44,517 bases of DNA from Escherichia phage vB_EcoM_SHAK7858. Below are positions 2,749 through 37,971 of the stretch, piece by piece (within the stretch, counting starts at the first letter, position 1; every line of letters begins with the position of its first letter). The stretch lies in sequence record OR594183; one strand, written 5' to 3'. A model generated the notes under the pieces. The model was not told the origin of the DNA and ran no database searches. It worked only from the letters and a program-made list of their open reading frames with translations. Both the position numbers and the translations under genes were made by a program.

Positions 2749-3825
2749 ATGCTATTAACTTTAGCGCCACAGGGTTTATCTATGAGCTTACTTACATCCC
2801 TAATCAGCCATCAGATATGGCTGCAACGCACCGCATCCGGTGAGGTGAAAGACCTCACGCCGTTCATTCAGGAGATAAGGGATGAAATCAAACGGCAGGT
2901 GCTGTTATTCGGTGACGACGGTCGCAGCACTGCGCGACTGAATAAACTGTTACGCGACCTGGAAGAAGCACTAACCGGTATTACGGGTGACTGGCAAACA
3001 AAGCTAACAGACGACCTTAAGGAACTGGCGGCGTACGAGGCTGAGTGGAACGTAAAGACACTGACCGCCAACGTAGACGCGGAATTTGTTACGCCTACCG
3101 CTGAGCAGGTATGGGCCGCTGCCGAGTTTCAACCATTATCATTGAGCGACAAGCCCGTTGATTTCACCAAGCTGATGTCTGGATGGGGCGAAACGGAAGT
3201 AGCACGTCTTGTAACTGGAGTTAAGATGGGCTTTGTGCAAGGTCAAACCACACGGCAGATTGTTAAGAATGTTGTTGGCGCTGGTGGACTAGCCGACATC
3301 TCAGAACGTAACGCGACTACGGTAATCCGCACCGCGCTGTCCCACGTATCCAACGAGGCCCGTAACGAGACGTACCGCCAGAACGACGACATCATCGAGA
3401 AGTACGAGTGGGTGTCAACGCTTGACAGCCGCACCAGTACGATTTGCAGGGTCAGAGACGGGATGACGTGGGAAATTGGTAAGGGGCCGATGCCCCCAGC
3501 CCATCCGAACTGCCGGTCGTGCACGGCTCCGGTAATCAGTTCCGAGTTCGACTTCCTCGATAAAGGCGCAAAACGCGCGGCTAAAGGCGCGGAAGGTGGC
3601 ACTCAGGTAAGCGCAGACACCACTTACTACGAGTTCCTTAAACAACAACCGGCGTGGTTTCAGGACCAGGCGCTCGGCCCGGTGCGAGGTAAGATTTTCC
3701 GTAACAGCGGTATATCGCCGGAAGAGTTTCGCGTAATATCTGTAGATGGTTTCGGGAATCCGCTCACGCTTAAGCAGATGGCGGAACTCGATAAACGTGT
3801 TGCTGATTATCTGAAAGGGGAATAA
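2749..3825 (+). CDS. Head morphogenesis protein (Mu gpF-like minor head protein)
   Basis: Conserved C-terminal HPNCRSC motif typical of the Mu F family; position after portal. Start could be 2749 or the ATG near 2779. Confidence 0.75.
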   Translation: MLLTLAPQGLSMSLLTSLISHQIWLQRTASGEVKDLTPFIQEIRDEIKRQVLLFGDDGRSTARLNKLLRDLEEALTGITGDWQTKLTDDLKELAAYEAEWNVKTLTANVDAEFVTPTAEQVWAAAEFQPLSLSDKPVDFTKLMSGWGETEVARLVTGVKMGFVQGQTTRQIVKNVVGAGGLADISERNATTVIRTALSHVSNEARNETYRQNDDIIEKYEWVSTLDSRTSTICRVRDGMTWEIGKGPMPPAHPNCRSCTAPVISSEFDFLDKGAKRAAKGAEGGTQVSADTTYYEFLKQQPAWFQDQALGPVRGKIFRNSGISPEEFRVISVDGFGNPLTLKQMAELDKRVADYLKGE

Positions 3826-4286
3826 TGATGGGCTTTTTCAAAGTAACTGACGTACCGTCTCGTCGCGTAGTCCAGTACGCCCGCGTGTCTGGCTCGGGCG
3901 AGAACGTGGTATTTATTGAGGACGAAAGTGTACTCGGTACACCGGTAGATGATATGCCGTTTGCAGATAAAACCGGTATTGCGTTGCCCGCCGCCGGTGT
4001 GCTTTATGAAATTCCGTATCTGGCGGACGCTGGCGACGTGTATTTCTCTGTGCAACCGAAAGACGCTGAACTGGCAGACGGCAGCGCGACTATCACTGTC
4101 GAAGTTAAGGCGGGTAAAGCGCCGTATACGCTGACCTGGTACAAAGACGGTAAGGAAGTGGTAAACGCCCCAGAAGAGGCTTTGTCTCTGTCGGTTAATG
4201 CGGTAGGTGAATACTTCGTTAAAGTTACTGATGCCGATGGCGTAGAGGTGGTGAGTAAAGCGGCGAAGGTCACTAAGCCAGAATGA
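3825..4286 (+). CDS. Ig-like domain protein (possible head decoration or accessory protein)
   Basis: C-terminal PYTLTWYKDGKEV...GEYFVKV pattern resembles an Ig-like fold; paralogous to the ORF at 7601-7951. Confidence 0.5.
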   Translation: MMGFFKVTDVPSRRVVQYARVSGSGENVVFIEDESVLGTPVDDMPFADKTGIALPAAGVLYEIPYLADAGDVYFSVQPKDAELADGSATITVEVKAGKAPYTLTWYKDGKEVVNAPEEALSLSVNAVGEYFVKVTDADGVEVVSKAAKVTKPE

Positions 4287-4290
4287 CAAA

Positions 4291-4321
4291 AGGCCCCGTT
4301 ATGGGGCCTTAGTTTTATTTT
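4291..4321. terminator. Bidirectional rho-independent terminator
   Basis: aggcccc-gttat-ggggcct followed by a T-run; lies between convergent genes. Confidence 0.6.
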
Positions 4322-4523
4322 AACGGAACCTTGTGTTTATGTAATCCTCATGCACGACCCTCAGAACAGTGTCGTAGTCCCCGTATCTTGCAGGGTCAAA
4401 TACATATAACGCCCTCTCAGCAGAATTTACGTCAGGGAAAACCTGAAGAACCTTTTTAACCCGGCACAAGTCGCCATCAAATTCTTCATCGAACTCTTGA
4501 ACTACTTCGCAAATCGCATACAT
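4320..4523 (-). CDS. Hypothetical small acidic protein (67 aa), reverse-strand orphan inside the head module
   Basis: ORF with a strong SD (aggagg) before the ATG, its own upstream promoter with the recurrent palindrome, terminator downstream. Confidence 0.55.
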   Translation of the reverse strand: MYAICEVVQEFDEEFDGDLCRVKKVLQVFPDVNSAERALYVFDPARYGDYDTVLRVVHEDYINTRFR

Positions 4524-4549
4524 TTCCGCCTCCTGTTTAATTTGACTGA

Positions 4550-4578
4550 ATAGTACCCTATTATGTTGTGGTGTGCAA
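4550..4578 (-). promoter_or_regulatory. Sigma70-like promoter (TTGCAC-N17-TACTAT) with embedded palindrome TGAATAG-N4-CTATTAT
   Basis: Hexamers and spacing read on the minus strand; palindrome at about 4547-4564; directly upstream of the 4320-4523 gene. Confidence 0.45.
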
Positions 4579-4644
4579 ACTATTTGTTTACGTATTCCAG
4601 TTATTCCACTCGATTGTAAATGTAGGAATAAACTATTCGAATAG

Positions 4645-4787
4645 TTGACTTTTCACTAAAAATGTGCTAAGCTCCACCTGAGCTTGTGAAGTATGAACAA
4701 GCGACCGCGGCGCGGGCAGGTAACGGAGCGGGACGTAAGTCCTGAGTGTAGTTACGCTGACGCGTTCGGAAGGGCCATACTCTATTG
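4645..4787 (+). promoter_or_regulatory. Conserved promoter-leader element, copy 1 (TTGACT-N17-TAAGCT plus about 115 nt of leader)
   Basis: About 80 percent identical by eye to 36228-36370, with a 51-nt perfectly identical core at 4660-4710; inverted repeat aagctc-cacct-gagctt at the -10/+1 region. Confidence 0.5.
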
Positions 4788-4853
4788 CTTGTGTAAAAAG
4801 TAACAGGTTTACTTAGATTACGCCGTTTCTATGTTTAAATGATAAGGACTAGC

Positions 4854-4880
4854 GCCCTGCTTTAAGGCAGGGCTTTACTT
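4854..4880 (+). terminator. Terminator-like hairpin in the leader upstream of the spanin genes
   Basis: gccctgc-tttaag-gcagggc followed by tttactt, about 190 nt downstream of the promoter at 4645. Confidence 0.4.
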
Positions 4881-4897: not shown

Positions 4898-5284
4898 ATG
4901 AATCTTAAAGCAACCGTCGTAGCAGGAGCATGTTTCATCATCCTGGCTTACACACACGGCATTTATCAGTACCGCAGCGGCTGGCACGAAGGCCGGGCGA
5001 ATCTCGTTTCGCAGCAACAGCAGAAAGCGCAGGCGGAGTTAGCGAAGAAAACACAACGGCAGCAGCAGGACGAATCAAAGGCCGCCGCCGCCGACAACGA
5101 AGGCAAGACGAAATCAGAGGTGATTACCCGTGAAGTCGTTAAATACATTAAAACGCCGGGTCGCAGCGTGTGCACTTTCGACGATGCTCGCGTCCTGCTC
5201 AAGTCCCACGCCGTCGCAAACGCTAATTCCATTACCGGATACGACGATGATGCAGCCTCCGTGCAAACTGGCAGCGCCAAGTAG
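4898..5284 (+). CDS. Inner-membrane spanin component (Rz-like)
   Basis: N-terminal transmembrane segment followed by a Gln/Ala-rich helical region; a lipoprotein ORF overlaps in another frame. Confidence 0.55.
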   Translation: MNLKATVVAGACFIILAYTHGIYQYRSGWHEGRANLVSQQQQKAQAELAKKTQRQQQDESKAAAADNEGKTKSEVITREVVKYIKTPGRSVCTFDDARVLLKSHAVANANSITGYDDDAASVQTGSAK

Positions 5285-11638: not shown

Positions 11639-11662
11639 AGGCCCCTTTCGGGGCCTTTTTCT
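11639..11662. terminator. Bidirectional rho-independent terminator
   Basis: aggcccc-tttc-ggggcct with T-run on the + strand and A-run upstream; between convergent genes. Confidence 0.65.
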
Positions 11663-12216
11663 TACAAACCTAATTTTAAAGCAATGTCTATAACGTTCGA
11701 TTTAACGTCACCCGGTATGATGTAGGTGTCGTAATCTTTTACACCACTAACATCATACAGATAGCCACGGCTATCGCCGATGAACGTATAGCCGTCACGA
11801 TGGAGGCGGACGATTCGCACGTCATGCCCCGCGGCGACGATAGGGGCAACTTCACTGGCGAATCCACCATCGGACACTACAAAAACTTCGTCGCCGTCAG
11901 GCAAGTTTTCAGCAAGATACTTACCGAAATAATCATCGCCGAATACCGGTTTAATGAATTGCTCAGAAATGGCAATCATTAACCGGCGGCGGGACAACCC
12001 ATTAAGAAAACCCTCGGGTTTTTCTTTCCGCGCCCGGTCGTCGTAGCCGTCGAGAAAGTCGTGGTAAGCATCCGGGCCTAACGCTGCCAAAGCAATATTG
12101 AACATTGGATTCTTGAAACTGGTAGTTCCTTTCGCAAAGCCCATTTCTACCAGCGCCATAGCAAGCGTGTCTTTCCCGCAACCCGCAGGGCCATTAAGAA
12201 TAATTACCTTAGCCAT
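11662..12216 (-). CDS. P-loop nucleotide kinase (dNMP-kinase-like)
   Basis: N-terminal Walker A GPAGCGKDT resembling phage deoxynucleoside-monophosphate kinases. Confidence 0.6.
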   Translation of the reverse strand: MAKVIILNGPAGCGKDTLAMALVEMGFAKGTTSFKNPMFNIALAALGPDAYHDFLDGYDDRARKEKPEGFLNGLSRRRLMIAISEQFIKPVFGDDYFGKYLAENLPDGDEVFVVSDGGFASEVAPIVAAGHDVRIVRLHRDGYTFIGDSRGYLYDVSGVKDYDTYIIPGDVKSNVIDIALKLGL

Positions 12217-12704
12217 TATTTATCGCTCCCGTGTGGTTTTAAGTGTGTAGAGTTCCCGTTACAGTCGTATTCGGTAACTGCGTGTGCGGTTATGCCGAGG
12301 TCACGGAAATGCTTTATTACCGCTGGAGAGTCGTCGAACGCACACAAGATTCTTTCCAGTCCGAAAGCACGCAACACCTCTTCTTTAATTACGATGTCTT
12401 TTCTGTTGTCGTGTTTGCTGCGCATGATTAGCGTGTCAAACCTAACGTTATTCTCTCGTAACCATTCGCGAGTCTCCTCCTCAGCGTCATCACTTCGCCC
12501 GGTAAGGATAATTATAGTAAGTCCGGAATGCCACAGTACGCTACACAAATGGATATTGTCGTATATCGGAGCGTCATCTTTGCAGGCCATGTTAAATGGC
12601 TTCCACGCCCACGTTTCTCCGTAGTTATCTTTTGGTAACAGGTGTAAGCGATGGGTACCGTCGGCCAATGTCCCGTCTAAATCGAAAATTACAATATCTT
12701 TCAT
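12216..12704 (-). CDS. HAD-superfamily phosphatase (5'-nucleotidase or polynucleotide 3'-phosphatase-like)
   Basis: Motif I FDLDGTL at the N-terminus, downstream motifs consistent with the HAD fold. Confidence 0.65.
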   Translation of the reverse strand: MKDIVIFDLDGTLADGTHRLHLLPKDNYGETWAWKPFNMACKDDAPIYDNIHLCSVLWHSGLTIIILTGRSDDAEEETREWLRENNVRFDTLIMRSKHDNRKDIVIKEEVLRAFGLERILCAFDDSPAVIKHFRDLGITAHAVTEYDCNGNSTHLKPHGSDK

Positions 12705-13831
12705 CCCAGCATCTCCGGTGAAATAGTTAAACGTGCGACCTCGCCATATTCGGCGCTATAAGTAATTACATTTGCACTGCGGCCCGACATCCATCCGCCG
12801 CGAGAGGCGTAGGCGTCTTTAGCCGCTAAGGTGCGGTGTTGCTCAACAATCATGTTACGGCTTTCTACAATCTTCTGGTGGTGCAGATGGCCTACGTGGG
12901 CGTAGCTGTAAACACTCTCGCCGAACGCTTTACGGAACTTGGCAATCATAACCGGTTCGATAGCGTCGAATCGTGCTTTATGCCCGTGATGGAAGAACAG
13001 CGTCGTTTTGCCGTGTTGCACCATCTTATAAACATCCGGCGACGTATCGACGAATACACGAGGCTCGTTGTCGTACAGTGTGCTGAACATCTCCGCCAGC
13101 CAAATCATCCCGGATTCGTCGTGGTTCCCCTGAACTATAAGCAAGCGAACAGTTTTATGCTTAACCAGAGCCATATCAACAACACGGCGGACCATGCGAA
13201 TCATGTAGCGGACAAGTTTCTGGTAACGCGTGTCGGCGTCAAGGACATGACCACTCGCCGGTGTAACGGCGTCAAGACTATCGAAGTGAGCTAAGTCGCC
13301 AAGAAGATTAATAACCCCCGTACCTGCATCCGGTGCTTTCTGAAACGCAGCATCAAACCAACGAGAGAATAAGTCCTCCGCGATTTTCATATCCCAGTCG
13401 TCGCCGCTCTCGTCAGCCCAGGCTAACATACCGAGATGGAAATCAGACACGGTGTACAGGTTAAGCAGCTTGTCGTCACGTTTAGCCCGGGCGGCCTTAA
13501 CTGGCGGAACGGGAGTAATCTCCGACTTCATGCCTTCGACTACGGCTTTCATCAACTCAACCTGACGTTCGGCATCGGTGTCTGTCTTAACCCACTGCAA
13601 CTTAGTGTTACCGAACTCGTCCACCAGAGACGACGTGCCTTTAATCTTGTAGCCGTCTGGTACAAGGTGGCTTACGTCCCGCCCGTGGCCTACGCCTTTC
13701 TTAGCCAGCTTCGCTTTACGGATTCGGATAACGCGGTCTGAGATTCCGTATTTACGGGCGATATCGATATTCTTCATCCCGGCGTTCAATTCTTCCTGTA
13801 ATTGCTCGTCGGTTATTTTCTTCTGGGCCAT
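12701..13831 (-). CDS. HTH-fused calcineurin-like metallophosphoesterase (Mre11/SbcD-like motifs)
   Basis: N-terminal HTH (NIDIARKYGISDRVIRIRK), then DFHLG, GDLAH, GNHD, HHGH and GHLHH motifs. Start taken at the ATG with SD gaggaag; ORF track extends to 13936. Confidence 0.65.
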   Translation of the reverse strand: MAQKKITDEQLQEELNAGMKNIDIARKYGISDRVIRIRKAKLAKKGVGHGRDVSHLVPDGYKIKGTSSLVDEFGNTKLQWVKTDTDAERQVELMKAVVEGMKSEITPVPPVKAARAKRDDKLLNLYTVSDFHLGMLAWADESGDDWDMKIAEDLFSRWFDAAFQKAPDAGTGVINLLGDLAHFDSLDAVTPASGHVLDADTRYQKLVRYMIRMVRRVVDMALVKHKTVRLLIVQGNHDESGMIWLAEMFSTLYDNEPRVFVDTSPDVYKMVQHGKTTLFFHHGHKARFDAIEPVMIAKFRKAFGESVYSYAHVGHLHHQKIVESRNMIVEQHRTLAAKDAYASRGGWMSGRSANVITYSAEYGEVARLTISPEMLG

Positions 13832-13869
13832 GCTTACTTCCTCGTGTTTAGGATTTGTCTTATAGTAGC

Positions 13870-14061
13870 CTACTTCTCTTTCACGTTCGAGTTGCAAGCC
13901 CAGATTAAAATGAATACCCACGGCAACAGAATCCACCCGAGAAATAAGTTAGCCATGAATATCGCCAGCTTTGCTTTATGGTTACGCATATGTGCCACCA
14001 AAAACGGGATAAAATAAACGGCTACAAAAATAATTAAGAAGAACATAGTGATACCGGTCAT
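13870..14061 (-). CDS. Small two-TM membrane protein, superinfection-immunity (Imm)-like
   Basis: Two hydrophobic helices and NLFLGW motif; AT-rich. Start taken at the internal ATG preceded by SD aggag; ORF track extends to 14088. Confidence 0.5.
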   Translation of the reverse strand: MTGITMFFLIIFVAVYFIPFLVAHMRNHKAKLAIFMANLFLGWILLPWVFILIWACNSNVKEK

Positions 14062-14103
14062 AACATAACTCCTGATTTGAGATAACATCGTTGGTGTAAG
14101 TGA

Positions 14104-14132
14104 ATAGTACGCTATTATATTGGGGTGTGCAA
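14104..14132 (-). promoter_or_regulatory. Sigma70-like promoter (TTGCAC-N17-TACTAT) with embedded palindrome TGAATAG-N4-CTATTAT
   Basis: Same architecture as the promoter at 4550-4578; drives the reverse-strand cassette. Confidence 0.45.
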
Positions 14133-14239
14133 GTAGTGTGCTAGAATAATTTTGCGCCTAGTGTCGCACACGAAAAGCGGGTGGTTCCCGTCTGGCGCAT
14201 TTCCTTTAACCAGTAACCTCTTAACCAAAGGATTAAAGA

Positions 14240-35728: not shown

Positions 35729-35941
35729 TTACTTAACGCCCGCAATCCACGCACGCTCCGAAGCGTAGAAACGACACTTACTTAAAGCCTCGATTGGCAT
35801 CTTAATAATGCGTGTCGGTTCCAACAAATGATTAGGCTTACATATTTCCGCATAGAATCCGCTGTCAGTAATTTCCGACGCAAACTTAAACCAGTATTTA
35901 ACTTTACAGTTTTCAAAGTAACAACCCATACGCCCAATCAT
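35729..35941 (-). CDS. Hypothetical protein (70 aa)
   Basis: ORF translationally coupled to the upstream HTH gene. Confidence 0.4.
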   Translation of the reverse strand: MIGRMGCYFENCKVKYWFKFASEITDSGFYAEICKPNHLLEPTRIIKMPIEALSKCRFYASERAWIAGVK

Positions 35942-36120
35942 TTCACGTTCTCCTTAATCCATGCTTCAACTTTATTACGGTCAAATGTTCCTGGTAAACG
36001 GCGACCCATAACCTTAATACAGCAATCAGGGAATTTACCGCTGCGCAACCAGTTATTAATTGTTTGACGTGTCACCCCGATACGTTCAGCCACTTCATTC
36101 TGTGTCATGTAATGCTGCAT
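35938..36120 (-). CDS. Small HTH DNA-binding protein (AlpA/excisionase-like fold)
   Basis: MTQNEVAERIGVTRQTINNWLRSGKFP; start taken at the ATG with SD aggagat. Confidence 0.55.
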   Translation of the reverse strand: MQHYMTQNEVAERIGVTRQTINNWLRSGKFPDCCIKVMGRRLPGTFDRNKVEAWIKENVK

Positions 36121-36227: not shown

Positions 36228-36370
36228 TTGACTTTTACTAAGAAATGTGCTAAGCTCCACCTGAGCTTGTGAAGTATGAACAAGCGACCGCGGTGCGGCA
36301 GGAAACGGAGCGGTGCGTCAGCACTGAGTGTAGTGTCGCTGCCTGCATTCGGAAGGGCCATAATCTATTG
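36228..36370 (+). promoter_or_regulatory. Conserved promoter-leader element, copy 2 (TTGACT-N17-TAAGCT plus leader)
   Basis: Same length as copy 1 at 4645-4787, identical 51-nt core at 36243-36293, diverged centre retaining the 10-mer ctgagtgtag. Confidence 0.5.
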
Positions 36371-36457
36371 TAAATCCCGTCTAAATAACCCAAGTCACTA
36401 ATAATTAAAAGTTTCTATAGTTGCCGTAAGCAAGGTAGAGAGTACTTCACTCCGCTG

Positions 36458-36477
36458 GGGTGGGCTAAAGCCCACCC
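36458..36477 (+). other. GC-rich hairpin in the leader downstream of promoter-leader copy 2
   Basis: gggtgggc-taaa-gcccaccc, not followed by a clear T-run. Confidence 0.3.
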
Positions 36478-36536
36478 GCTGCGTTGCGTACTCTTTAAAG
36501 AAACAAAAGAATCACAACGGCAACGTAACTAATCTC

Positions 36537-36565
36537 TTGCACACCCCAACATAATAGGATACTAT
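36537..36565 (+). promoter_or_regulatory. Sigma70-like promoter (TTGCAC-N17-TACTAT) with embedded palindrome ATAATAG-N4-CTATTCA
   Basis: Palindrome at 36551-36568; about 35 nt upstream of the ATG at 36600. Confidence 0.45.
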
Positions 36566-37942: not shown

Positions 37943-37971
37943 TTGCACACTAAAATAGAATAGGCTACTAT
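37943..37971 (+). promoter_or_regulatory. Sigma70-like promoter (TTGCAC-N17-TACTAT) with embedded palindrome AGAATAG-N4-CTATTCA
   Basis: Palindrome at 37957-37974; followed by the aaacgagaggagagacagag leader. Confidence 0.45.

What the first reader, a model, noticed from the sequence alone, without database searches (positions are those of the whole stretch)
4320..4523. Orphan reverse-strand gene for a small acidic protein inside the head gene block
A 67-aa acidic protein is encoded on the opposite strand between two + strand structural genes, with a strong SD, its own palindrome-bearing early-type promoter and a bidirectional terminator. Small acidic proteins under early promoters in such moron positions are frequent host-takeover or anti-defence factors; nothing in the sequence identifies the target.
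Basis: inference. Interest (0 to 1): 0.55.

Follow-up and report, generated by a model that had tools for sequence, protein, structure and literature searches.

The report
Portable early accessory gene in phage
The reverse-strand ORF is a real gene for a small acidic protein of unknown function, carried on a self-contained promoter-gene-terminator cassette in a swappable slot of a Kagunavirus coliphage; it is a reasonable but unproven candidate for a host- or defence-inhibiting factor.

Summary
ORF 4320-4523 (-) encodes a 67-aa protein (pI 4.5, net charge -6.4). It has an AGGAGG Shine-Dalgarno 5 nt upstream, a promoter of a repeated palindrome-bearing class, and a shared hairpin terminator.

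The window is a Kagunavirus (Guernseyvirinae) genome.

- **Real gene:** dN/dS is about 0.2. Homologues at 44-67% identity occur in other phage genera. AlphaFold gives pLDDT 92.
- **Mobile unit:** promoter, SD, ORF and terminator occur together in a second head-module slot in relatives. Here they sit in a slot where at least five unrelated cargos alternate between identical flanks. This is classical "moron" architecture.
- **Anti-restriction unlikely:** BASEL phages Bas70-76 carry the gene yet are highly restriction-sensitive.

My best reading, by inference, is an early accessory protein that binds and inhibits a host or defence protein. Variability concentrates on one helix face.

A neighbouring promoter plus leader RNA, present in two copies and almost invariant across genera, may be the more interesting feature.

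The parts
4290..4310 (.). G+C-rich hairpin AAGGCCCCGTTATGGGGCCTT. It is an intrinsic-terminator-like site on both strands. It ends the upstream + strand operon (terminase to Hoc-like gene) and the - strand 67-aa gene, and it is the left anchor of the cassette slot.
   Evidence: Scored on both strands by the terminator scan. Stem invariant and loop variable among relatives. The same hairpin follows the gene where it sits in the portal/MuF slot.
4320..4523 (-). Coding sequence of the 67-aa acidic protein (7.97 kDa, pI 4.5). Predicted fold: beta1(2-12)-beta2(17-29)-alpha1(32-42)-alpha2(44-47)-beta3(53-58).
   Evidence: dN/dS 0.2. Family alignments. AF2 pLDDT 92, pTM 0.74. GC 44% against 50.6% for the window.
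4529..4534 (-). Shine-Dalgarno AGGAGG, 5 nt upstream of the ATG. It is the right anchor of the cassette slot: sequence identity among relatives resumes exactly here.
   Evidence: Sequence. Alignment of four phages carrying three different cargos.
4550..4578 (-). Class A sigma-70-type promoter TTGCAC-17 nt-TACTAT. The predicted start is near 4541-4543, giving a 5' UTR of about 20 nt.
   Evidence: The 29-nt sequence occurs 3 times (4550, 14104, 36537) at up to 3 mismatches against 0 expected, and a fourth class A copy lies at 37959. All are oriented toward a downstream SD and ATG. Activity is not tested.
4549..4562 (.). Palindrome AATAG-N4-CTATT overlapping the -10 element. Presumed operator for a phage regulator, shared by the promoters of non-structural gene blocks.
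   Evidence: 8 sites against 0.04 expected. Positions and orientations relative to genes. The binding protein is not identified.
4631..4646 (.). Perfect 16-bp palindrome AACTATTCGAATAGTT, built from the same half-sites in everted order. It overlaps the -35 of the divergent + strand promoter.
   Evidence: Unique in the window. Invariant in four relatives.
4645..4673 (+). Neighbouring divergent promoter TTGACT-17 nt-TAAGCT with an extended -10 TG. It is not part of the gene unit but is the conserved right flank of the slot.
   Evidence: Sequence. Duplicated at 36228. 95-100% identical in 178 of 180 phage records.
4680..4790 (+). Conserved structured leader RNA candidate downstream of that promoter. 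A second copy lies at 36263-36373.
   Evidence: Hairpin 4729-4744 has compensatory changes in 3 of 5 pairs.
4854..4873 (+). Hairpin terminator or attenuator between the leader RNA and the spanin, scaffold and capsid genes.
   Evidence: Compensatory T>C / A>G change in the stem among relatives.

Best explanation
The ORF is a real protein-coding gene on a self-contained, portable transcription unit: promoter with operator, SD, ORF and hairpin terminator, about 330 bp. This is a 'moron'-type accessory cassette lodged in a polymorphic slot of the head-gene block of a virulent Kagunavirus. Shown at sequence level: the unit, its mobility, its dispensability, and purifying selection on the protein core. 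Inferred: host sigma-70 RNA polymerase transcribes it early as a monocistronic RNA of about 250 nt, and a phage regulator later shuts it off through the AATAG-N4-CTATT operator that it shares with the replication-gene and small-early-gene promoters. Inferred with less certainty: the 8-kDa acidic alpha/beta product has no catalytic signature and acts by stoichiometric binding to a host protein, using the variable face of helix alpha1 and the 58-63 segment on an invariant core. That partner is most likely a component of an anti-phage defence or another host factor that limits infection. The target is unknown. My confidence is about 0.9 for 'real accessory moron gene' and about 0.4-0.45 for 'inhibitor of a host or defence protein'.
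For: Real gene: dN/dS 0.19-0.23 against the Bas72-type allele; homologues of 63-71 aa at 44-67% identity in Jerseyvirus, Cornellvirus, Jedunavirus and other Klebsiella and Escherichia phages, with Enterobacter phage EcP1 matched by fold, and further family members in the representative-library profile search; AF2 pLDDT 92, with independent BFVD models of relatives superposing at TM 0.78-0.95. Autonomous unit: promoter class repeated, operator 8 times against 0.04 expected, AGGAGG SD, terminator. Portable: the P0004 allele (91% identical, 15 contigs) and VSt10 carry the same promoter, SD and terminator around the gene between the portal and MuF genes; those two genes are only 36 nt apart in this window. 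Accessory: between identical flanks the slot holds the 67-aa gene, a 173-aa beta-clamp-like gene, or 94-, 63- or 57-aa genes. Only 32 of 50,697 phage records carry the family. ORF GC is 44% against 50.6%. Non-structural and early association: in other phages the gene lies directly after DNA polymerase A, between an Acb1-like 2H phosphoesterase and the primase, or at the head of a small-gene operon. The same promoter class drives a superinfection-immunity plus PNKP end-healing island at 11662-14088. Binder-like features: small, acidic, no enzyme motif; the invariant residues are core hydrophobics plus D16 and the C-terminal F-R. Between the two main alleles, 14 nonsynonymous and 2 synonymous changes fall in codons 30-46 and 58-64, against 0 and 11 elsewhere. 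No relative turned up in the scan of one genome per bacterial species, consistent with the family being phage-borne.
Against: There is no expression data. The only Kagunavirus transcriptome found did not annotate this slot. The promoter matches the sigma-70 consensus only moderately, and the generic scan missed it. No homology or fold match links the protein to any known anti-defence or host-takeover family. The padloc scan failed on a coordinate error and was not repeated. Carriers Bas70-76 show no unusual resistance to the RM systems and Old system tested. With 10 alleles the enrichment of amino-acid changes in the variable patch is weak (27N:24S against 16N:34S, p=0.044), and the patch was defined post hoc. 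Guilt by association is weak: the Acb1-like hit is below the Pfam cutoff.
Confidence: 0.45

Rival explanations
1. The protein is a host-takeover factor aimed at housekeeping machinery rather than at a dedicated defence system. One version is a mimic or decoy of the ClpS adaptor that perturbs ClpAP proteolysis. Another is an inhibitor of a host nuclease, replication or transcription component, in the way T7 gp5.5-5.9 proteins encoded after the DNA polymerase gene act.
Confidence: 0.17
2. The protein is an accessory factor of the phage's own DNA replication or recombination machinery, for example a small subunit or modulator of the polymerase, helicase or nuclease. In this genome it was relocated to the head block.
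For: In two relatives it is co-directional and tightly packed between DNA polymerase A and an endonuclease/SNF2 helicase. In vB_Kpn2-P2 it sits just upstream of the primase. The promoter's operator is shared with the replication-gene promoters.
Against: It is absent from most Guernseyvirinae that have the same replication genes. In this lineage it moves as an independent cassette and is interchangeable with unrelated genes. The family occurs in phages with different replication modules.
Confidence: 0.12
3. The protein is a phage-versus-phage competition or superinfection-exclusion factor acting in the cytoplasm against co-infecting relatives.
For: Cargo polymorphism at one slot among near-identical phages. 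The sister island under the same promoter class starts with a superinfection-immunity (Imm) gene. Variability is concentrated on one surface.
Against: No membrane segment or signal peptide is evident in the sequence. The family has no known exclusion homologue. An early gene of a virulent phage has only a short time window to exclude others.
Confidence: 0.08
4. The protein is a head assembly or decoration accessory, which would explain its place in the head block.
For: Position between head genes here, and between the portal and MuF genes in relatives.
Against: Opposite strand with its own early-type promoter. Sporadic distribution and replacement by unrelated genes. Located in replication or early modules in other phages. 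No structural-protein homology.
Confidence: 0.03
5. The ORF is not translated. The conserved sequence serves only as an RNA or as spacer DNA.
For: No direct expression evidence.
Against: Synonymous changes far exceed nonsynonymous ones in the core (0 N against 11 S). Protein-level conservation persists at saturated dS across genera. The fold is confidently predicted and reproducible. The SD is strong.
Confidence: 0.02

Closest known systems
Morons of lambdoid and other tailed phages (autonomous promoter-gene-terminator units inserted between genes of a late operon; concept of Juhala, Hendrix and colleagues, cited from my own knowledge)
   Same: An extra gene sits between genes that are adjacent in relatives. 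It has its own promoter and its own terminator, a different base composition, opposite orientation to the surrounding operon, and sporadic distribution.
   Different: The host phage is virulent. The unit cannot be a prophage-expressed fitness factor, and the family was not found in bacterial genomes. The promoter is one of the phage's own operator-controlled early-type promoters rather than a constitutive one. The slot behaves as a fixed expression socket in which only the coding sequence is exchanged.
Small acidic early or middle inhibitors of T7-like phages (Ocr/gp0.3, Gp2, gp5.7, gp5.9; from my own knowledge)
   Same: Size of 50-120 aa, acidic, expressed before the structural genes, and in relatives located just after the DNA polymerase gene. 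The secondary-structure order beta-beta-alpha-beta, as I recall it from memory for Gp2, resembles the model.
ClpS (ClpAP adaptor)
   Different: Below the usual significance level. The topology is only partly shared, and the profile comparison is negative. The protein is 67 aa against a ClpS core of about 85 aa. N-degron pocket residues cannot be mapped.
Small anti-CRISPR proteins AcrIC8 and AcrIF9
   Different: The scores are in the noise. There is no adjacent aca-type HTH gene in any context examined. E. coli K-12 type I-E is normally silent, and no phenotype is known.
PHROG 27256 (unknown function)
   Same: The only library family hit, covering the full length (residues 2-67 to profile positions 4-65 of 65).
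   Different: E = 0.0014 is borderline, and the family carries no functional information.

Membership tests
Moron (autonomous accessory transcription unit in a phage late-gene block) | Extra gene inserted between two genes that are adjacent in related phages | tested here: met
   The portal and MuF genes are 36 nt apart here but hold the cassette in P0004-type contigs and VSt10. The Hoc/spanin slot holds at least five different cargos in relatives.
Moron (autonomous accessory transcription unit in a phage late-gene block) | Own promoter upstream | tested here: inconclusive
   A conserved TTGCAC-17-TACTAT element of a repeated class travels with the gene. Only sequence evidence is available, and the match to consensus is moderate.
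Moron (autonomous accessory transcription unit in a phage late-gene block) | Own terminator downstream | tested here: met
   Hairpin AAGGCCCC-loop-GGGGCCTT followed by a T-rich tract, present in both slots. Pattern level only.
Moron (autonomous accessory transcription unit in a phage late-gene block) | Base composition different from the surrounding genome | tested here: met
   ORF GC 44.1% against window 50.6%.
DNA-mimic anti-restriction proteins (Ocr, ArdA type) | Fold or sequence similarity to a known DNA mimic | tested here: not met
DNA-mimic anti-restriction proteins (Ocr, ArdA type) | Carriers are protected from restriction-modification systems | tested here: not met
   Bas70-76 all carry an 82-84% identical allele and are reported as highly sensitive to RM systems (PMC11990801). 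This is literature evidence on a different allele.
ClpS adaptor family | Significant sequence-profile or fold match to ClpS | tested here: not met
ClpS adaptor family | N-degron binding pocket residues | not testable with these tools
   No residue-level structural alignment was available.
T7 Gp2-like RNA polymerase inhibitors | Sequence-profile or fold match to Gp2 | tested here: not met
Anti-CRISPR proteins | Fold match to a known Acr, or an adjacent aca regulator gene | tested here: not met
PHROG 27256 | Profile match over the full length at a convincing E-value | tested here: inconclusive
   E 0.0014, 19.7 bits, residues 2-67 to profile positions 4-65 of 65.

The most novel reading that the evidence does not exclude
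Guernseyvirinae keep fixed 'expression sockets' in the head block: an operator-controlled early promoter and SD on one side, a shared hairpin terminator on the other. Unrelated counter-defence cargos are exchanged into these sockets by recombination at the invariant flanks. On this reading the 67-aa protein founds a new anti-defence family with a fold not represented in the PDB, and its variable helix face tracks a polymorphic host immune protein. In addition, the socket's right flank is a promoter plus ~110-nt structured leader RNA that is nearly invariant across genera and present in two copies, one heading each long late operon. That leader could be a factor-independent (HK022 put-like) or Q/6S-like antitermination device that has not been described in this subfamily.
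Probability: 0.2. Interest if true: 0.7.

Novelty: new member of a known kind. Interest (0 to 1): 0.4.

Why it matters
If the protein inhibits a defence system or host factor, it would add a new family, with no fold match in the PDB, to the anti-defence repertoire of small E. coli, Salmonella and Klebsiella siphophages, a group also isolated for phage-therapy purposes. It is directly testable in the BASEL phages Bas70-76, which carry it. The polymorphic slot, with a conserved promoter/SD and terminator around interchangeable cargos, gives a simple rule for harvesting further accessory-gene candidates from Guernseyvirinae genomes. It is also a natural insertion site for engineering these 41-45 kb phages. 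As it stands the finding is a well-delimited hypothetical accessory gene, which is common in phage genomes.

Tried and rejected
**Library searches**
- Pfam, NCBIfam and PDB sequence searches with the single protein and with a 26-sequence profile gave nothing meaningful.
- PHROGs gave only a borderline hit to an unknown-function family.
- The padloc scan failed on a coordinate error and was not repeated.

**Fold searches**
- The afdb50 library was not available.

**Specific hypotheses tested**
- I tested a Gp2-like RNA polymerase inhibitor and a ClpS relative by profile comparison. Both were rejected.
- A conserved two-gene module with the downstream ~170-aa gene in Geezett and vB_Kpn2-P2 was rejected. 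The two neighbours are unrelated.
- A paralogue elsewhere in the window: none.
- Prophage or bacterial copies: none in the species-representative genome scan. That scan used only two peptide patterns.

**Expression data**
- The only Kagunavirus transcriptome paper found (PMC12645636) called no gene in this slot.
- No Jerseyvirus RNA-seq study was found.
- Two literature searches with generic terms returned irrelevant papers.

**Other**
- Reading the conserved + strand region 4693-4803 as the annotated 36-aa protein was rejected. The two genomic copies differ by two compensating 1-nt indels that change the middle of the peptide while the nucleotides stay conserved.

Full report

Yes. The six-frame ORF list shows a 67-codon ATG ORF at 4320..4523 on the - strand. 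It translates to MYAICEVVQEFDEEFDGDLCRVKKVLQVFPDVNSAERALYVFDPARYGDYDTVLRVVHEDYINTRFR.

- It has 14 acidic and 8 basic residues, pI 4.5, net charge -6.4 and mass 7.97 kDa. Its G+C content is 44%, against 50.6% for the window.
- AGGAGG lies at 4529-4534, 5 nt from the ATG.
- The ORF occupies a gap between the + strand genes 3825-4286 and 4898-5284 and overlaps neither.
- Hairpin 4290-4310 scores as a terminator on both strands.

**2. What is the window?**

The surrounding 1.5 kb is 90-93% identical to the best-matching Escherichia phage genomes, which are Kagunavirus (Guernseyvirinae) phages. These include BASEL phages Bas70-76.

In those records the ORF is annotated as 'hypothetical protein' (Bas72_0006). 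It lies between a Hoc-like head decoration gene and an Rz-like spanin, which is followed by the scaffold and major capsid genes. So the downstream neighbour is a lysis gene inside the head block.

**3. Anatomy of the unit**

Upstream of the SD lies TTGCAC (4573-4578), 17 nt, then TACTAT (4550-4555).

- **Promoter class.** The generic sigma-70 scan did not score this element. However, the 29-nt stretch recurs at 14104-14132 (-) and 36537-36565 (+) with 2-3 mismatches, against 0 expected. A fourth copy of the same class lies at about 37959 (+). All four point at an SD and ATG 30-50 nt downstream.
- **Operator.** The -10 element is embedded in the palindrome AATAG-N4-CTATT, which occurs 8 times in the window against 0.04 expected.
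- **Second class.** At three further sites (26533, 30088, 32655) the same palindrome sits in the spacer of near-consensus TTGACA-17-TATAGT promoters. These read the - strand replication genes.
- **Timing.** The palindrome marks promoters of the replication block, the small-gene block and two reverse-strand islands. It is not found at the structural operons. That is the basis for calling the promoter 'early-type'. Timing itself is inferred, and the binding protein is not identified.

**4. A portable cassette in a polymorphic slot**

I aligned this region from four Kagunaviruses. Identity is near-perfect up to the terminator hairpin, and it resumes exactly at the SD. Between these anchors lie three unrelated coding sequences of 67, 173 and 63 aa.

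Across the 19 loci in hand that have both anchors, the cargo is as follows:

| Cargo | Loci |
|---|---|
| 67-aa gene | 9 |
| 173-aa beta-clamp-like gene | 5 |
| 94-aa gene | 2 |
| 63-aa gene | 1 |
| 57-aa gene | 1 |
| other, 736 nt | 1 |

The clamp-like cargo is present at 80% identity or more in 23 phage records.

The 67-aa gene also occurs in a different slot. A 91%-identical allele (P0004, 15 contigs) and the Jerseyvirus VSt10 copy both lie between the portal and MuF genes on the opposite strand. There the gene has the same promoter (…CATAATAGGGTACTATTCA…AACAGGAGG), the same SD and the same hairpin AAGGCCCC-loop-GGGGCCTT. In this window the portal and MuF genes are only 36 nt apart.

The whole ~330-bp promoter-SD-ORF-terminator unit is therefore mobile. 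This is the classical moron architecture.

**5. The protein family**

- **Distribution in phages.** tblastn finds the protein in only 32 of 50,697 phage records. These are 20 Kagunavirus, a few Jerseyvirus and Cornellvirus, Klebsiella Jedunavirus and other Klebsiella phages, and a 61-kb Escherichia phage.
- **Wider searches.** The 5.8-billion-protein search gave 18 clusters. A profile search of 1.84 billion representatives gave 22 hits, about 18 of them credible, all 63-75 aa or carrying annotation-type N-terminal extensions.
- **Bacterial genomes.** A scan of one genome per bacterial species found no relative.
- **Conserved residues.** The invariant residues are D16, V22, A35 and the C-terminal F66-R67. 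C5, V7, L26, Q27, F29, R55 and V57 are nearly invariant.
- **Predicted fold.** AlphaFold2 with the 18-sequence alignment gives pLDDT 92 and pTM 0.74, with the order beta-hairpin, helix, short helix, strand. BFVD models of VSt10, EcP1 and two other relatives superpose at TM 0.69-0.95.
- **Contexts elsewhere.** In other phages the gene is non-structural. It lies directly after DNA polymerase A, between an Acb1-like 2H phosphoesterase (below the Pfam cutoff) and the primase, or first in an operon of small genes after the endolysin. In Geezett it again lies on the opposite strand between the portal and MuF genes.

**6. Selection**

Against the common Bas72-type allele, dS is 0.40 and dN is 0.09, giving a ratio of 0.23.

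The changes are sharply partitioned:

| Region | Nonsynonymous | Synonymous |
|---|---|---|
| Codons 30-46 and 58-64 | 14 | 2 |
| Rest of the gene | 0 | 11 |

The variable residues 32, 33, 36, 37, 40 and 41 have the i, i+1, i+4, i+5 spacing of one face of helix alpha1.

With ten alleles the enrichment persists but is weak (27N:24S against 16N:34S, Fisher p=0.044), and I chose the patch after seeing the data. I take this as suggestive of an interaction surface under diversifying pressure. It is not proof.

**7. What does it do?**

Nothing identifies a target.

- Pfam and NCBIfam gave no hit, PDB sequence searches returned only chance-level matches (E 0.019 or weaker), and PHROGs gave one borderline family of unknown function.
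- Profile comparisons with ClpS and with T7 Gp2 are negative. I tested Gp2 because I recalled a similar strand-strand-helix-strand order.
- The anti-restriction idea is weakened by published phenotypes. [quoted passage not shown]

The context points to an early, dispensable, frequently exchanged, phage-only small protein with no catalytic signature and a variable surface. The best-supported mechanism is stoichiometric binding and inhibition of a host protein, most probably part of a defence system or another infection-limiting factor.

I rate the 'real accessory moron gene' part at about 0.9 and the 'inhibitor' part at about 0.4-0.45. The rivals are:
- housekeeping takeover, including a ClpS-like decoy;
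- a replication accessory role;
- inter-phage exclusion;
- a structural role;
- a non-coding region.

**8. Things seen beside the finding**

- **Conserved promoter and leader RNA.** The right flank of the slot is a strong + strand promoter, TTGACT-17-TGcTAAGCT at 4645-4673, followed by about 110 nt of conserved sequence. A second copy lies at 36228-36373.
  - This 161-nt element is 95-100% identical in 178 of 180 phage records, including Salmonella Jerseyviruses. Over the 1.5-kb query that includes the neighbouring genes, 111 of 299 matching records fall in the 60-80% identity band.
  - A consensus fold has 31 pairs with 97.9% of cells paired, against 31-45% when the partners are slid. Hairpin 4729-4744 has compensatory changes in 3 of 5 pairs.
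  - The 36-aa ORF that some records annotate there is not conserved as a protein between the two copies.
  - No Rfam family matches.
  - Each copy is followed by a hairpin terminator and then by one of the two long + strand operons. This suggests a lambda PR'/6S-like or HK022 put-like antitermination leader. I did not test that.
- **Palindrome at the late promoter.** A perfect 16-bp palindrome built from the same half-sites overlaps the -35 of copy 1 only.
- **int-alpA RNA.** An Rfam int-alpA RNA match (36.6 bits, just above the gathering score) sits at 14151-14215, before the tail chaperone gene.
- **Second reverse-strand island.** The island at 11662-14088 is under the same promoter class. 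It encodes a superinfection-immunity protein, a metallophosphoesterase, and an HAD-PNKP phosphatase plus a P-loop protein, which looks like an end-healing module.

**9. Limits**

- All promoter, operator, terminator and timing statements rest on sequence patterns and their repetition.
- No expression data exist for this slot.
- The BASEL phenotype evidence concerns an allele 82-84% identical to the one in this window.
- The bacterial-genome scan used two peptide patterns and one genome per species.
- The afdb50 fold library was unavailable.
- The padloc scan was not completed.

Noticed in passing
window 4645-4790 and 36228-36373 (+); terminators 4854-4873 and ~36455-36480: Two copies of a strong sigma-70 promoter (TTGACT-17-TGcTAAGCT) plus a ~110-nt conserved, structured leader RNA. 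Each copy is followed by a hairpin terminator and then a long + strand operon. The 161-nt element is 95-100% identical in 178 of 180 phage records across Kagunavirus and Jerseyvirus, far above the flanking genes. Hairpin 4729-4744 shows compensatory changes in 3 of 5 pairs. No Rfam family matches. It may be an antitermination leader (put-like or PR'/6S-like).
   Followed up: partly
window 4693-4803 (+): The 36-aa ORF annotated as a hypothetical protein in several GenBank records (e.g. Bas72_0007) lies inside the conserved leader. The two genomic copies differ by two compensating 1-nt indels, so the middle of the peptide is not conserved while the nucleotides are. It is probably not a protein-coding gene.
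   Followed up: partly
window 4631-4646: Perfect 16-bp palindrome AACTATTCGAATAGTT, made of the same AATAG/CTATT half-sites as the early-promoter operator but in everted order. It overlaps the -35 of the + strand promoter of copy 1 only; copy 2 at 36228 lacks it.
   Followed up: partly
window 4549, 14103, 26533, 30088, 32655, 36553, 37801, 37959: Eight AATAG-N4-CTATT palindromes (0.04 expected) define two promoter classes. In class A (TTGCAC-17-TACTAT) the palindrome overlaps the -10. In class B (TTGACA-17-TATAGT) it sits in the spacer. All sites are at non-structural gene blocks. The regulator that binds them is unknown; HTH candidates are at 35938-36120 (-) and the homologue of Bas72_0050.
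   Followed up: partly
window 14151-14215 (+): Rfam int-alpA RNA (RF02996) match at 36.6 bits (gathering score 35.8), with the conserved GCGCCUAG…CGAAAAGCGGG…CUGGCGC core. It lies between a class A promoter and the tail assembly chaperone gene.
   Followed up: partly
window 11662-14088 (-): A second reverse-strand island inside the structural block, under the same class A promoter. It encodes a 72-aa Imm superinfection-immunity protein, a 411-aa metallophosphoesterase, a 162-aa HAD_PNKP phosphatase and a 184-aa P-loop protein. The last two look like a polynucleotide kinase-phosphatase-like end-healing pair that could counter RNA- or DNA-nicking defences. Gene content differs from Bas72 at this island.
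   Followed up: partly
L007 1516-2037 (-) (phage fFiEco03) and relatives: The alternative 173-aa cargo of the same slot resembles one domain of the DNA polymerase III beta clamp (weak Pfam and NCBIfam hits; PHROG 3007 and 947). It is found in 225 phage records. In several unrelated siphophages it lies on the reverse strand early in the record, where head genes usually lie (e.g. EP23, VLCpiS13a).
   Followed up: partly
window 4898-5284 (+) and overlapping ORF: The Rz/Rz1-like spanin genes sit in the head-gene block, far from the holin and endolysin genes (about 40-41.5 kb). They come directly after the leader RNA and its terminator.
   Followed up: no
L004 2524-2985 (Klebsiella phage vB_Kpn2-P2 gp30): The gene immediately upstream of the family member in this phage is annotated as RNA ligase. 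It gives a sub-threshold Pfam hit to anti-CBASS Acb1 (E 0.001, 19.3 bits, cutoff 27), a 2H phosphoesterase.
   Followed up: no
L008 (OR594180.1, phage vB_EcoM_SHAK7693): The GenBank record is classified as Autographiviridae/Kayfunavirus and named as a myovirus. Its sequence is about 92% identical to Kagunavirus siphophages over the region compared, so the taxonomy line is probably wrong.
   Followed up: no
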